36,698 bases of DNA from a virus (lineage: Duplodnaviria; Caudoviricetes), in the IMG/VR virus record IMGVR_UViG_3300032327_000087, positions 1 to 36,698 of that record. One strand, given 5' to 3'. The first letter of the stretch is position 1, and each line of letters opens with the position of its first letter. Position numbers and translations under genes: made by a program. The notes beneath the pieces are model-generated. The model saw only the letters and a program-made list of their open reading frames with translations. It made no database searches and had not been told where the DNA came from. Positions 5,460-13,060 of the stretch are shown piece by piece.

Positions 5460-5626
5460 TTTGCGATTGTAGGTCATGTAGGCAATTTATTATATAAAAA
5501 AAATCGACAGCCTTATTGCACACATTTTTATAAAAAAAATTTTGAGCGTGAACCCTCCGCTAGCTAGGGCTCCCCGCAGGGCCCTCCCCCCCCTACCCCC
5601 ATGCCCTCAAGAATGCTTAATGCCAC

Positions 5627-5766
5627 ACTCACTAAGTCTTAGGTTGTTGGACAACCAACAAGCTCACTAAGTCTTAGCTTTGTACTCACTAAGTCTTAGT
5701 CACTCACTAAGTCTTAGCATACAAATACTCACTAAGTCTTAGCATCTGGTACTCACTAAGTCTTAG
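5627..5766. repeat. Array of six ACTCACTAAGTCTTAG repeats with palindromic core CTAAG-T-CTTAG
   Basis: Copies start at 5627, 5662 (first base G), 5684, 5702, 5727 and 5751; a degenerate seventh copy lies near 5777-5790. Confidence 0.95.
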
Positions 5767-5791
5767 GATTATATGCATACTAAGTTTAACT

Positions 5792-6037
5792 TGTAGGTCA
5801 TGTAGGTCATGTAGGTCATGGGGAAAACGTCGCACTGGCTCTTCAGCGTGTGCGTAAACGCTCCGACAATTTCATGCTCTAAAGTAATACTTAATATTAT
5901 CTATCTTTTAAATATATATCTAATAAATGACTATCTAATACTACAAAGCCCGTAAAGCCTTAATTTATATAGCCTTTTATGTAAGTCATTTGCCCCTATT
6001 TCATGACCTACAAAATAACCCACATGACCTACAAAAT
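5792..6037. promoter_or_regulatory. Candidate replication origin: convergent TGTAGGTCA repeats flanking an AT-rich core
   Basis: TGTAGGTCA at 5792, 5801 and 5810; reverse complement TGACCTACA at 6004 and 6025; 1-mismatch copy at 5980; AT-rich stretch ~5878-5980. Confidence 0.55.
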
Positions 6038-6070
6038 TATGAGCTTTTGTGAGCATTTTGCTATAAATAG

Positions 6071-6099
6071 TTGTACACTGCTATAAAATCATGTACAAT
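6071..6099 (+). promoter_or_regulatory. Sigma70-type early promoter
   Basis: TTGTAC-17 bp-TACAAT, ~30 nt upstream of the first rightward ORF. Confidence 0.65.
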
Positions 6100-6127
6100 A
6101 GAATCTCTTACTTAATAGGTGACCTAC

Positions 6128-6346
6128 ATGAAAAAGTACAAATTAGATGTAAAGCGCGACGTTGATTTTGACGGCGAAGGGTATATGTTTAACCTTTTAT
6201 GTGGTTGGCGTTTTTATGACGACGCTGTACATGTGCGCGGCTTTGATACATTAGCCGAGATACGCGCAGCGGCTAAAACTGACGTTGTGCCCTGTATTTG
6301 CCGCGAATGCGCAGCGGCTGCCGAGCCACTTTCCGCTGCCGTTTAA
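6128..6346 (+). CDS. Early hypothetical protein (alternative GTG start 6119)
   Basis: First ORF after the promoter; C-terminal CICREC. Confidence 0.7.
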   Translation: MKKYKLDVKRDVDFDGEGYMFNLLCGWRFYDDAVHVRGFDTLAEIRAAAKTDVVPCICRECAAAAEPLSAAV

Positions 6347-10253: not shown

Positions 10254-10282
10254 AAGCCACCCTCGCCGGTGGCTTTTTTTTT
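10254..10282 (+). terminator. Terminator-like hairpin oriented antisense to the polA-primase operon
   Basis: AAGCCACC-ctcgcc-GGTGGCTT followed by a T run on the + strand. Confidence 0.6.
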
Positions 10283-12185
10283 ATTTACCGTACCTAGCCA
10301 TTGTGTGAATTTCAACGTCTAGCGGCAAACCTTTCGCCCACGGCGGGGGCGTACACATTACTTTTCTTAATTGTTCGGTGACTTGTTCGGGCTGATCGGT
10401 TTCGATGACAATCTCATCGTGGACGTGCAAGACGACATCATCAAGTTGGCGAAGGGCGTAACGTAATACGTCGTTCGCTGCGGCTTGGGTGATGTTCTCA
10501 CAGGCCAAGCCACGCCATAGTCGTGCGCGGGGCCATTCACGGGCGTCTGCGGCGGGTTTCCAAGCAGCTTTTGCGTATGAAATACCATCTTCTTCTATTT
10601 TGGCAAATGGGTAGCAAAGGATGCGACCCGAGGGTAAAGCGTACCACAGGTGTAGACCATCAAACAGATAGGTTACCCTACCCGCTACGATTTCGCGCCC
10701 CTTATTACGCATGGCAATCATGTAACCACTTTCTAATTCTTGCCAATACCTGACAGCCCATTGATTAGCACGGCGCCAAGCGTCTACGGTACGCTGCGCG
10801 TCCGATTCTGTCATGGTTAACCCGTAGGCGCGGCCCATTGCAGAAAAAGCACCGATACCCCCGCCGAAACCACAGGCGAGGATTGCCACTTTGCCTATCT
10901 GACGCTGATCGGGGGTGACTTGATCTTCAGGTATCTTGTACATAGCGGCTGCTTCCCGTATGTAGATGTCACGCCCTGACCTGAACACGTCAAGCACATC
11001 ATCACCGCGCCCTGACAACCACGGGGTCATCCTAGCTTCAATCTGCGCCCAATCGGCTACCACCAAGGACTTACCTTTGGCCGGTATGATCGCGGGGCGT
11101 AGCATCCCTTTTAGAACGTCTGTGACCCTTTTGCCAAACTCGGGAACAATGGAACGCCCGCAAACCATACTATTTCTAACAGATTCGGGGTCTTTGGCGC
11201 ATTTGCGCGTGAAATTGTGAACTTGAGCGCCGAAAGAAGACGCACGGCCTGTCGCCGATCCTCCAGCGAAAACGAAGGCTCCTCGGACGCGAGCATCCTC
11301 CACGTCTGCCAAGTCGCGTAAGCGTGAGAACTTCGCAACCGACGACGCCCAAAGATCATCGGCGCATTGGATAACCTCGGCAACGTCGGGCGGTAAGTCT
11401 TCGACCGCGAGTAGGTTTGCGCGGACGCGCTTGTCGATACTGTATTTTCCATCTTCCACTTCCATTAGTTTAAGTTGTTCGGGGCTCAGTCTTTCTTGAA
11501 CCCAAGCGCGCATCTTCGGCGAGCGGACTGACGTGATCGCGCCATTGGTGACGGCTCGGACAATGGACTGTATGTCCTCGAGTTCGGTGGCCGCGTAAGT
11601 AATGGCTGCGTCGGCAAGACGCGCGTCCACCAAAACACCTCGGTCGTTGATTTTTTCGTTGACATGATAATCCTCGAGTTCTTCATCAGATAACGGGCGT
11701 AGGCTTTGACTGACGGCGCGCATGGCGCGCACGTCTTGTTCACAGTATCGGACAAGTTCAACCATAAGCGCAACATCATCTTTAAACGGCGGCACACACA
11801 ACGCACGGATAAGCTGCGCGCCACGGTAATCTTTCTTCATACTGGCACCGGCAAAGCGGCCCACGTCTTCAAGGCTACCAGGCGCACAGTTGGCGCGCGC
11901 TTGTGTTGCGGTGCAATAGAACTGCTCGAGCGTAAAATTGATTTGTAAAACGTACCAAAAAATCAGGCGCTCAAAGGCTGCGTTGTGGGCGTAGATTAAG
12001 CCCTTATGATCGCGTACACGCTTGGGGAAGGGCTGCGTGGGTAGCCATGTAGCCACGTCTTCATCGTCAAAAGCGTAGGACATACACAAGACGTCGGTCG
12101 TTGCGTCTTGCGCGTAGTTGTAGACGCCATGCTTCTTTAGGTCGCAATGGCTGCGAGTTTCAAAATCTAGATATAGGATTGTCAT
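10281..12185 (-). CDS. polA: Family A DNA polymerase with 3'-5' exonuclease domain
   Basis: ExoI LDFETRS, ExoII AHNAAFER, ExoIII YCEQDV; motif A ADWAQIEAR, motif B RQIGKVAILACGFGG, motif C HVHDEIV. Confidence 0.95.
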   Translation of the reverse strand: MTILYLDFETRSHCDLKKHGVYNYAQDATTDVLCMSYAFDDEDVATWLPTQPFPKRVRDHKGLIYAHNAAFERLIFWYVLQINFTLEQFYCTATQARANCAPGSLEDVGRFAGASMKKDYRGAQLIRALCVPPFKDDVALMVELVRYCEQDVRAMRAVSQSLRPLSDEELEDYHVNEKINDRGVLVDARLADAAITYAATELEDIQSIVRAVTNGAITSVRSPKMRAWVQERLSPEQLKLMEVEDGKYSIDKRVRANLLAVEDLPPDVAEVIQCADDLWASSVAKFSRLRDLADVEDARVRGAFVFAGGSATGRASSFGAQVHNFTRKCAKDPESVRNSMVCGRSIVPEFGKRVTDVLKGMLRPAIIPAKGKSLVVADWAQIEARMTPWLSGRGDDVLDVFRSGRDIYIREAAAMYKIPEDQVTPDQRQIGKVAILACGFGGGIGAFSAMGRAYGLTMTESDAQRTVDAWRRANQWAVRYWQELESGYMIAMRNKGREIVAGRVTYLFDGLHLWYALPSGRILCYPFAKIEEDGISYAKAAWKPAADAREWPRARLWRGLACENITQAAANDVLRYALRQLDDVVLHVHDEIVIETDQPEQVTEQLRKVMCTPPPWAKGLPLDVEIHTMARYGK

Positions 12186-12192
12186 AGGTGTG

Positions 12193-12294
12193 AGGTGGGG
12201 GCGTTGATTTGGTCGTTGCAATCTGTGCGCTGGAAGGCAAGAAAAACACGCACTTACGACATCCTCAAATGCTTGCCTAACCGCCCCCTAACCT
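12193..12294 (-). ncRNA. Candidate structured RNA (four nested stems plus a 7-bp pseudoknot) in the polA leader; strand uncertain
   Basis: Perfect complementary pairs 12197-12203/12282-12288, 12207-12211/12266-12270, 12212-12216/12256-12260 and 12225-12229/12249-12253, plus crossing pair 12235-12241/12272-12278. Confidence 0.65.
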
Positions 12295-12437
12295 TACTCG
12301 GCTACTGCTGATGGCAACTGCGGCAACGCTTGCGCGCGAATCTTAGCGATTAGGCCTTCAACCTGTTCGTAAGGTTGACGCCCGAGCATCGCCATGATCG
12401 AATTAACTTCTGCAATAGTTAAGTTCAAGTCAATCAT
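12294..12437 (-). CDS. Small hypothetical protein (47 aa)
   Basis: MIDLNLTIAEVNSIMAMLGRQPYEQVEGLIAKIRAQALPQLPSAVAE; AGGAG SD and ATGA overlap. Confidence 0.75.
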   Translation of the reverse strand: MIDLNLTIAEVNSIMAMLGRQPYEQVEGLIAKIRAQALPQLPSAVAE

Positions 12438-13060
12438 GTTGCGCTCCTACGACGACGGGCGGGTGCTGCCTCGGCAACTTCTTCGACTTCCGCAACTGGC
12501 TCTTCACCATCCATCGACACCCACGACTGAATGTCAAACAATGGTGTAAAGATGCGACCGTACGACTTATGCTGATAGTGGTCTTTTTTAAGCAACACAA
12601 CAGGCACAGGCTTAGACTGATCTTTATCAACTTGTTCAGCAATCGCCACGGCTAGGGTCTGGACGCCACGCTTGCCACCCGCAGATGTAGTGGTGTACCG
12701 CGCTTCCATGCCCTTATCTTCGCCGGTCAGGCACTTGAGTGACATACCGACTTGGACTTCCCACCCACGTTTTGCCATTGCTGGTGCGTCATCCATTTCG
12801 GGTAATGGCTCAGATACAGACACCATTTTCTCGCCGAGAACGTCACCATCACCCCACGCAATGTAGCCGTGAACGAAACTGAAGGGGTTGACTGCCCACG
12901 TTGAGTCAGCTTCGACTTCATCTTGATCGGCACCAAAAACCCAATGACCAGTTTTGTCCATCTTGATGATGACTGTGCCGGTAGGGCCCACGTCTGCTTG
13001 AATGGTACGCAGGGCGGTTGACAGGCTTTTTACTTCAGGGAGTTTTGCTAAGTTAAACAT
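12434..13060 (-). CDS. Putative single-stranded DNA-binding protein
   Basis: Lies between the DUF2800 nuclease and polA; aromatic beta-rich core, YQHKSYGRIFTP, acidic C-terminal tail. Confidence 0.55.
   Translation of the reverse strand: MFNLAKLPEVKSLSTALRTIQADVGPTGTVIIKMDKTGHWVFGADQDEVEADSTWAVNPFSFVHGYIAWGDGDVLGEKMVSVSEPLPEMDDAPAMAKRGWEVQVGMSLKCLTGEDKGMEARYTTTSAGGKRGVQTLAVAIAEQVDKDQSKPVPVVLLKKDHYQHKSYGRIFTPLFDIQSWVSMDGEEPVAEVEEVAEAAPARRRRSAT

What the first reader, a model, noticed from the sequence alone, without database searches (positions are those of the whole stretch)
12186..12296. Pseudoknotted ~100-nt RNA element fills the gap before polA, whose start codon has no Shine-Dalgarno
Seen: in mRNA sense the gap reads AGGU-UA-GGGGGCG-GUU-[AGGCAAG]-C-AUUUG-AGGAU-GUCGU-AA-GUGCG-UGUUUUU-[CUUGCCU]-UCCAG-CGCAC-AGAUUGCA-ACGAC-CAAAU-CAA-CGCCCCC-ACCU-CACACCU-AUG. 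This gives four nested perfect stems (7 bp extendable by 4, then 5, 5 and 5 bp) and a perfect 7-bp crossing helix between the apical loop and the first internal loop. It starts at the stop codon of the 47-aa ORF and ends 7 nt before the polymerase AUG, which is preceded only by C/A/U. The nearest G-rich SD-like sequence (UAAGGUUAGGGGG) is locked in the basal stem. Known: T4 genes 32 and 43 autoregulate translation through a leader pseudoknot and a hairpin. Inference: a cis-regulatory RNA (autogenous operator, reinitiation or shunt element), a small RNA or a ribozyme; I do not recognise the family.
Basis: partly seen in the sequence, partly recalled or inferred. Interest (0 to 1): 0.8.

Follow-up and report, generated by a model that had tools for sequence, protein, structure and literature searches.

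The report
Mobile pseudoknotted small RNA of phages
The gap before this phage's DNA polymerase gene holds a 92-base knotted RNA structure of an uncatalogued family found in hundreds of phage contigs, and because other phages carry it beside unrelated genes or on its own with a predicted promoter, it is likely a free small RNA that binds a host target rather than a switch for the polymerase.

Summary
The structure is real: window 12197-12288 (minus strand) belongs to a strongly covarying RNA family (248 distinct sequences collected; 98.3% of cells paired; 23 of 27 pairs change on both sides; pseudoknot perfect in 51 of 52 copies found without selecting for it). No Rfam match. It is not a polA operator. 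Only 21 of 200 copies precede this polA family. Copies also precede 42 other gene families, sit in arrays of other RNAs, lie antisense between two genes, or are inverted in an SSB-exonuclease gap with their own predicted promoter and U-tract. The ends look defined: a -10 box just before the basal stem, or a 7-bp stem followed by RCC, as in RNase P substrates (as here). Best reading: a discrete ~95-nt phage RNA, likely cut from the SSB-polA message by RNase P, acting in trans as a protein-binding decoy; the target is unknown and nothing is tested in RNA. The scan saw this family before on other DNA (e1-6072261) and read it as a cis gate behind SSB genes.

The parts
12197..12288 (-). Whole structured RNA element, 92 nt; single copy in the genome
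   Evidence: (93.8 bits; next hit 10.6)
12282..12288 (-). P1 5' strand (GGGGGCG); first G is the predicted RNase P +1 position
   Evidence: covariation at all 7 pairs; G at +1 in 69 of 79 RCC-tailed copies
12197..12203 (-). P1 3' strand (CGCCCCC)
12194..12196 (-). RCC tail (ACC) directly after P1; predicted RNase P anchor
   Evidence: RCC at the P1 end in 67 of 198 copies against 2% per position downstream; role inferred from PMC11143913 passages
12269..12281 (-). 13-nt one-sided bulge: conserved GUYA (possible U-turn, inferred), pseudoknot 5' strand AGGCAAG (12272-12278), conserved C12271
12265..12268 (-). P2 5' strand (UUGA); pairs with 12204-12207
   Evidence: 97.9% paired, 3 of 4 pairs with two-sided change
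12204..12207 (-). P2 3' strand (UCAA), stacked on P1
12261..12264 (-). GGAU side of the conserved 4x4 internal loop
   Evidence: GGAUG was part of every search pattern, so its invariance is partly imposed
12208..12211 (-). YRAA (here CAAA) side of the 4x4 loop; likely tandem sheared G-A pairs (inferred)
12256..12260 (-). P3 5' strand (GUCGU); 3 bp conserved, 5 bp here; pairs with 12212-12216
12212..12216 (-). P3 3' strand (ACGAC)
12249..12253 (-). P4 5' strand (GUGCG); pairs with 12225-12229
   Evidence: 6 of 6 pairs with two-sided change
12225..12229 (-). P4 3' strand (CGCAC)
12233..12246 (-). Apical loop: conserved UUUU, pseudoknot 3' strand CUUGCCU (12235-12241), conserved UC
12217..12224 (-). 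Variable hinge between P4 and P3; carries an extra hairpin in some relatives
12294..12437 (-). 47-aa ORF, upstream neighbour; no Pfam or PHROG match; its family precedes 16 of 200 copies
12434..13060 (-). 208-aa beta-rich protein, probably the phage SSB (inferred from position and weak OB-fold matches; best Z 8.2, gp32 Z 4.3; PHROG 9528 labels it nucleotidyltransferase)
10281..12185 (-). Family A DNA polymerase (634 aa), downstream neighbour, no SD

Best explanation
The 92 bases form a covarying fold-back pseudoknot that is likely released as a free ~95-nt RNA and likely acts in trans as a decoy that binds a host protein. Shown: the fold (P1 and P2 stacked, GGAU/YRAA loop, P3, hinge, P4, apical loop paired 7 bp to the P1/P2 bulge), the strand, and the spread over unrelated phages and gene contexts, including stand-alone copies. 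Inferred: in this phage it is co-transcribed with the SSB-type gene and polA; host RNase P would cut at G12288, guided by the 7-bp stem and the ACC tail; a second cut or 3' trimming would free the 3' end. Other phages reach the same ends with a promoter just before P1 or a U-tract just after it. Inferred, weakest step: the helices vary freely while the bulge, 4x4 loop and U-rich loop stay fixed, which is what a docking surface looks like, and the cassette favours sites likely to be highly transcribed (behind SSB-type genes, near terminase genes, RNA arrays), which suits stoichiometric binding. The target is unknown; a host defence or RNA-handling protein is the guess. polA is a bystander with a weak, SD-less start.
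For: Fold: 98.3% of 2592 cells paired, 23 of 27 pairs with two-sided change, 0 of 500 shuffles reach the covariation score, slid controls 36-50% paired; pseudoknot 7/7 in 51 of 52 copies found without asking for it; G-U 161 against A-C 7 fixes the strand. Not tied to one gene: 43 downstream families, none within 45 nt for 71 of 200. Stand-alone: antisense between endolysin and phrog_6637 genes (L264, L504), antisense before a polymerase (L217), converging on an endolysin (L522) or a phosphoesterase in a tRNA-bearing 367-kb contig (L518). Inverted in the SSB-Cas4 gap (L473, L512), each with one sigma-70-like promoter on its own strand (0.1 expected) and a U-tract; the same gap holds it forward in L279. 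Ends: -10-like hexamer 4-7 nt before P1 in 57 of 243; RCC right after P1 in 67 of 198 against 2% background, 18 of 69 after thinning to under 80% identity; stem of 7 bp in 49 of 79, G+1 in 69 of 79; U-tract in 58 of 198. RCC is rarer where a promoter already sets the 5' end: 9 of 58 against 86 of 183. Arrays: 30 of 200 lie within 280 nt of another conserved cassette frame; one follows a tRNA (L484). RNase P reads a 7-bp stem and RCC and cuts 4.5S, phage M3 and C4 RNAs (PMC11143913 passages).
Against: No RNA data at all. Most copies lie on the same strand as both neighbours (86 of 121), so a cis role is possible there, as here. The promoter-versus-RCC exclusion loses significance after thinning (5 of 22 against 27 of 65, p 0.13). 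Part of the -10 signal is stop codons; the stop-free signal is 29 of 241, or 9 against 2.7 expected after thinning. Two thirds of copies lack RCC at the stem end. How the 3' end would be freed 11 nt before the polA AUG without harming polA is unexplained. The SD-less start is itself conserved in front of this polA family (19 of 21). One lineage (L012, L014) has lost both pseudoknot strands, so the knot can be dropped. Nothing points to a particular target. The first alignment was filtered for pseudoknot and P2 pairing, and GGAUG was in every pattern.
Confidence: 0.42

Rival explanations
1. A self-cleaving ribozyme of a new class that cuts polycistronic phage RNAs and RNA arrays.
For: Size, pseudoknot and about 20 fixed nucleotides fit the criteria for ribozyme candidates given in PMC10085705 (passages). 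It sits between genes and in RNA arrays.
Against: No Rfam ribozyme match. Hammerhead CUGAnGA in only 5 of 248. Copies bounded by their own promoter and U-tract have nothing to cut. P1 encloses both ends, so a cut inside would not separate the flanks. The same paper found that ten look-alike candidates did not cleave.
Confidence: 0.15
3. A translational operator, coupling or shunt element for polA, bound by PolA or SSB.
For: Fixed short spacing to the stop and to an SD-less AUG in front of this polA family. T4 gp32 and gp43 bind leader structures in their own messages (PMC3014915 passages).
Against: 21 of 200 copies precede this polA family; 13 of 26 relatives keep it with the upstream gene when other genes are inserted; four relatives need no element; no SD is hidden in the 3' strand; T4 operators lie before the gene of the binding protein, whereas this lies behind the SSB-type gene.
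Confidence: 0.08
4. A free aptamer that soaks up a small signalling molecule (a riboswitch-like pocket with no expression platform).
For: Compact knot with fixed nucleotides at the helix junctions; class II c-di-GMP riboswitches also use a bend plus pseudoknot (PMC9495366 passage); no expression platform in stand-alone copies.
Against: No Rfam riboswitch match; no kink-turn consensus seen at the hinge, which varies in length; no link to any metabolic gene; no precedent that I know of.
Confidence: 0.08
5. The crossing helix pairs between molecules and builds rings, like phi29 packaging RNA (recalled).
For: Loop-to-bulge complementarity covaries within each phage; some 20 copies lie just before terminase genes.
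Against: The P3-P4 5' strand length is held to 13-16 nt and a hinge is always kept, as expected for an intramolecular fold-back; many copies lie in replication modules.
Confidence: 0.05
6. A single-stranded DNA signal (origin or primase site).
For: Common near replication genes; found in both orientations in one gap.
Against: Promoter, RCC and U-tract boundaries and the tRNA/RNA-array contexts point to RNA; this genome has a separate iteron-like repeat cluster.
Confidence: 0.03

Closest known systems
RNase P-matured non-tRNA RNAs: phage P1/P7 C4, phage M3, E. coli 4.5S (PMC11143913 passages); P4 CI and T4 RNAC/RNAD (recalled, and named in earlier notes)
   Same: Small RNA embedded in a longer transcript, closed by an acceptor-like stem of about 7 bp with G+1 and a 3' RCC.
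   Different: Different fold; no Rfam C4 or SRP match; no exposed seed (the variable loop strands pair with each other), so not an antisense RNA like C4; processing not shown.
Pseudo-ToxI RNA of phage PhiTE (PMC3475682 abstract)
   Same: Phage non-coding RNA acting in trans by molecular mimicry; the model for the proposed decoy role.
   Different: Pseudo-ToxI is a short tandem repeat copied from a host antitoxin; this element is single-copy, larger, and has no host chromosomal counterpart in the GTDB scan.
T4 gene 32 and gene 43 translational operators (PMC3014915 passages)
   Same: Structured RNA next to SSB and polymerase genes; a pseudoknot.
   Different: Those lie in the leader of the binding protein's own gene and overlap its ribosome site; this one follows the SSB-type gene, moves among 43 gene families and can stand antisense.
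Class II c-di-GMP riboswitch (PMC9495366 passage; detailed topology recalled)
   Same: A bent hairpin whose apical loop folds back to pair near the base.
   Different: No Rfam match, no kink-turn consensus, no regulated gene class, phage-restricted.

Membership tests
Any Rfam 15 family | Covariance-model match | tested here: not met
   0 in the window at gathering score, 0 at E<=10 in 12000-12500; no match on the element in 20 loci at E<=1 or 20 loci at gathering score
T4 gene 32/43-type autogenous operator | Lies in the leader of the gene for the binding protein throughout the family | tested here: not met
   21 of 200 precede this polA family, 6 another polymerase; it follows rather than precedes SSB-type genes
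T4 gene 32/43-type autogenous operator | Overlaps or abuts the ribosome-binding site | tested here: inconclusive
   11 nt from an SD-less AUG here; no ORF within 45 nt in 71 of 200
T4 gene 32/43-type autogenous operator | Binding and repression by the protein | not testable with these tools
   needs binding and reporter assays
RNase P-matured phage small RNA (C4/M3 type) | Terminal stem of about 7 bp, G+1, 3' RCC | tested here: met
   met in the window copy and 67 of 198 copies (2% background); 7 bp in 49 of 79, G+1 in 69 of 79
RNase P-matured phage small RNA (C4/M3 type) | Cleavage by RNase P | not testable with these tools
   no RNA run listed
C4-like antisense RNA | Exposed seed complementary to a phage target | tested here: not met
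   loop strands covary with each other; longest complement elsewhere in the genome is one 12-mer inside a coding region; tested in this genome only
tRNA/tmRNA | Cloverleaf or T-arm consensus | tested here: not met
   ARAGORN finds none in the window; T-loop word in 0 of 248
Hammerhead, twister and other catalogued self-cleaving ribozymes | Conserved catalytic core | tested here: not met
   CUGAnGA in 5 of 248, a recalled twister loop word in 0 of 248; no Rfam match
Self-cleaving ribozyme (new class) | Self-cleavage | not testable with these tools
   needs in vitro transcription
CsrA/RsmA-sponging RNA | Several CANGGANG words in hairpin loops (recalled) | tested here: not met
   the word occurs in 54 of 248; its CA lies in covarying P2 and GGA in an internal loop
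Pseudo-ToxI/type III antitoxin mimic | Tandem repeats resembling a host antitoxin | tested here: not met
   single copy; no Rfam antitoxin match; 5 real hits among 25 GTDB pattern matches, all on 2.6-37-kb MAG contigs
Class II c-di-GMP riboswitch | Kink-turn, ligand pocket, regulated downstream gene | tested here: not met
   no Rfam match; variable hinge; no common downstream gene; ligand binding untested

The most novel reading that the evidence does not exclude
A new class of phage counter-defence RNA: a portable, host-matured aptamer, one of a set of interchangeable RNA cassettes, that neutralises a host immune protein or soaks up an immune signalling molecule; or else a new self-cleaving ribozyme class.
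Probability: 0.3. Interest if true: 0.9.

Novelty: new variant of a known kind. Interest (0 to 1): 0.66.

Why it matters
Few phage non-coding RNAs have a known job. This family has a well-supported tertiary fold, hundreds of natural variants and a minimal size of about 85-95 nt, so it can go straight to cleavage, probing, pull-down and structure work. It has moved between small podovirus-like, terminase-operon and very large phage contigs while keeping its core, which points to a conserved host-side target. If it is a decoy, it would extend RNA mimicry beyond ToxI-type cases and give a handle on the other interchangeable cassettes in the same arrays. If it cleaves, it is a new ribozyme class.

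Tried and rejected
Rfam searches: nothing on the element. Thermodynamic folding alone: not better than shuffles and gives a non-conserved alternative. Scan for the crossing helix alone: almost all chance hits (one real copy, L199). Cultured phages: no real match for the window region or three variants in INPHARED; nearest relative is an uncultured spring phage whose polA is at the record end, so no host could be named. GTDB: 25 matches, 20 rejected on structure; the 5 real ones are MAG contigs (bins named Methylopumilus, Rhodoferax, Caulobacter, Beijerinckiaceae, proteobacterium), too unreliable for host calls. Expression: no RNA holder listed, which is no evidence either way; read laying not run. 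Literature: 9 searches showed no description of this RNA. It may still be an unnamed candidate in Fremin et al. 2023 (PMC10690425): motif words were absent from the four readable supplements, but the alignments and models could not be read. The supplement of Weinberg et al. 2017 (PMC5737381) could not be read, and the cluster database of bioRxiv 10.64898/2026.10.21.760802 was not seen (abstract and passages only). Rejected readings: hidden SD in the basal stem; GGA/UCC second knot (the UCC varies to UCU in 116 of 248; a G-C contact with the fixed C is not excluded); CsrA sponge; tRNA mimic for charging (acceptor pairs vary); a widespread knot-less form (1 of 52). The SSB label for the 208-aa protein got only weak fold support.

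Full report
Setting. The window is a complete 36.7-kb virus record with direct terminal repeats. On the minus strand a Cas4-like DUF2800 gene, a 208-aa probable SSB, a 47-aa ORF, the element, a family A DNA polymerase and a primase follow one another. The SSB label is inferred: Pfam has no match, PHROG 9528 says nucleotidyltransferase, and the model gives only weak OB-fold matches.

Observation. The sequence and the five helices are as quoted; such a set arose in 1 of 2000 shuffles. Folding energy alone is ordinary. Rfam has no match. The element is single-copy.

Family. Relatives of the polymerase gave the first homologues. Structure filters left 248 distinct sequences from 411 matches among all loci fetched; many contigs were fetched more than once. 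I aligned 96 of the 122 sequences then in hand, leaving out near-duplicates, short-P4 forms and forms with long insertions. On the revised structure 98.3% of cells pair, 23 of 27 pairs change on both sides, and slid controls pair 36-50%. That set had been filtered for the pseudoknot and P2, so P1, P3 and P4 are the independent helices there (96-100% paired). For the knot I used a pattern with no 5' constraint: of 119 matches, 99 were distinct and 52 passed P1/P2/P3 filters; 51 had a 13-14-nt bulge with a perfect 7-bp knot and one lacked both knot strands. Of the 47 dropped, 14 look by eye like members with an imperfect P1 and the rest are unrelated. G-U pairs outnumber A-C 161 to 7, fixing the strand.

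Corrected anatomy. P1 (7 bp) and P2 (4 bp) are contiguous on the 3' side, with a 13-nt bulge on the 5' side. Beyond P2 lie a GGAU/YRAA loop, P3, a variable hinge, P4 and a loop of UUUU, the knot strand and UC. Helix sequences vary (35 knot variants); GUYA, one C, AGGAUG, UUUU, UUC and CYRAAU do not, though GGAUG was in every pattern. The fold-back geometry and sheared G-A pairs are inferred.

It is not a polA operator. Of the 80 closest polA relatives, 26 carry the element in the flank fetched (7 loci had under 700 nt upstream); 13 have it within 50 nt of polA and 13 have 131-850 nt of other genes between. Of the other 54, 31 matched a simple SD-covering hairpin, 4 a different cassette and 19 neither pattern; four of these join the SSB-type stop straight to polA. 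Across 200 distinct copies, 21 precede this polA family, 6 another polymerase, and the rest exonuclease, terminase, NinG, methylase, Cas4 and many small genes (43 families, crude ORF calls); 71 have no ORF within 45 nt. The missing SD is real but local: 2 of 21 against 66 of 108.

It behaves as a stand-alone cassette. Among 121 copies with long flanks, 86 lie with both neighbours, 6 against both and 11 against the downstream one (some ORF calls are wrong). PHROG matches confirm real genes on the opposite strand for L264, L504, L217, L473, L512, L518 and L522 (16 proteins scanned). In L473 and L512 the element is inverted in the SSB-Cas4 gap that holds it forward in L279; each has one sigma-70-like site on the element's strand (0.1 expected) and a U-tract after P1. 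L518 is a 367-kb contig with five tRNAs nearby on the other strand and a TATAAATA word, the T4 late promoter as I recall it, just before P1. Thirty of 200 copies lie beside another conserved cassette frame, in chains of unrelated hairpin RNAs; L484 has a tRNA in such a chain and L293 a Betaproteobacteria-1 RNA downstream.

Defined ends. A -10-like hexamer lies 4-7 nt before P1 in 57 of 243 copies, against 0-6 per position elsewhere; without stop-codon look-alikes it is 29 of 241, or 9 against 2.7 expected after thinning. RCC follows P1 directly in 67 of 198 (background 104 of 5145 positions), 18 of 69 after thinning; such stems are mostly 7 bp and start with G. A U-tract follows in 58 of 198. 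RCC is scarcer where a promoter sits at P1 (9 of 58 against 86 of 183, p 1e-5 on related sequences; p 0.13 after thinning). RNase P pairs with RCC, leaves 7-bp acceptor stems and cuts 4.5S, M3 and C4 RNAs (PMC11143913, passages). The window copy has the 7-bp stem, G+1 and ACC, and no promoter nearby.

Mechanism. I commit to a free RNA of about 95 nt, 5'-matured here by RNase P, that binds a host protein in trans. I put the free-RNA part near 0.7 and the whole statement at 0.42. The model is pseudo-ToxI of phage PhiTE (PMC3475682, abstract). Against: no RNA data (one search listed no run); most copies lie in operons; release of the 3' end 11 nt before the polA AUG is unexplained; one lineage lost the knot; no target is indicated. 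Rivals are a new ribozyme (0.15), a message boundary (0.15), a polA operator like those of T4 (0.08; PMC3014915, passages), a small-molecule sponge (0.08), a ring-forming RNA (0.05) and a DNA signal (0.03).

Novelty. Not in Rfam 15 and not seen in nine literature searches. It may be an unnamed candidate in Fremin 2023 or the 2026 cluster preprint, whose models I could not read. No cultured phage carries the four variants tried. The scan found the family once before (e1-6072261) and read it as a gate behind SSB genes; the antisense, inverted and promoter-led copies found here do not fit that as a general account. I file it as a new variant of a known kind (host-matured phage small RNA) with an undescribed fold. 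Interest 0.66.

Noticed in passing
window 5627-5769: Six copies of a 16-nt direct repeat (CTCACTAAGTCTTAG core) at 18-35-nt spacing, plus TAGGTCATG/TGACCTACA repeats at 5467-6128, in an AT-rich non-coding stretch; looks like an iteron origin or packaging site.
   Followed up: no
L218 1440-1790; L416, L454, L467, L312, L246 upstream of the element: Chains of hairpin RNA cassettes with a constant outer stem and unrelated inserts, alternating with TTGG/CCAA-closed cassettes; no Rfam match.
   Followed up: partly
L025, L027, L032 and others, behind the SSB-type stop codon: A simple hairpin whose 3' strand holds the next gene's SD fills the same gap in at least 31 of 54 relatives; classic translational-coupling layout.
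   Followed up: partly
L056, L064, L068, L070, L074; L246, L294, L311, L312: Another uncatalogued cassette with GAAAG...GAGUA loop words, in the SSB-polA gap or directly upstream of the element.
   Followed up: no
L050 2440-2500: A third cassette type in the SSB-polA gap, also closed by a G-rich stem, GCC and an SD-less AUG.
   Followed up: no
L012 1637-1718; L014 1634-1715: Natural variants that lost both pseudoknot strands but kept P1-P4 and the GGAU/CAAA loop; ready-made controls.
   Followed up: partly
L386, L412, L461; L207, L215, L272: Two further conserved stem-closed RNAs ending in ACC or GCC directly upstream of the element.
   Followed up: no
L473 1130-1206; L512 1038-1105: The predicted antisense transcript of the inverted copies would begin with about 35-40 nt complementary to the start and SD of the Cas4-like gene.
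   Followed up: no
window 12434-13060: The 208-aa protein family ends in a conserved RRRR after an acidic tail; its best fold match is a chain in a PhiC31 integrase-RDF complex (Z 8.2, rmsd 4.6, 141 aligned); the PHROG label nucleotidyltransferase looks doubtful.
   Followed up: partly
L202, L209, L227, L229 and others: The first pattern also hits a coding stretch shared by many phage contigs (86-nt matches without the knot); these are false positives.
   Followed up: yes
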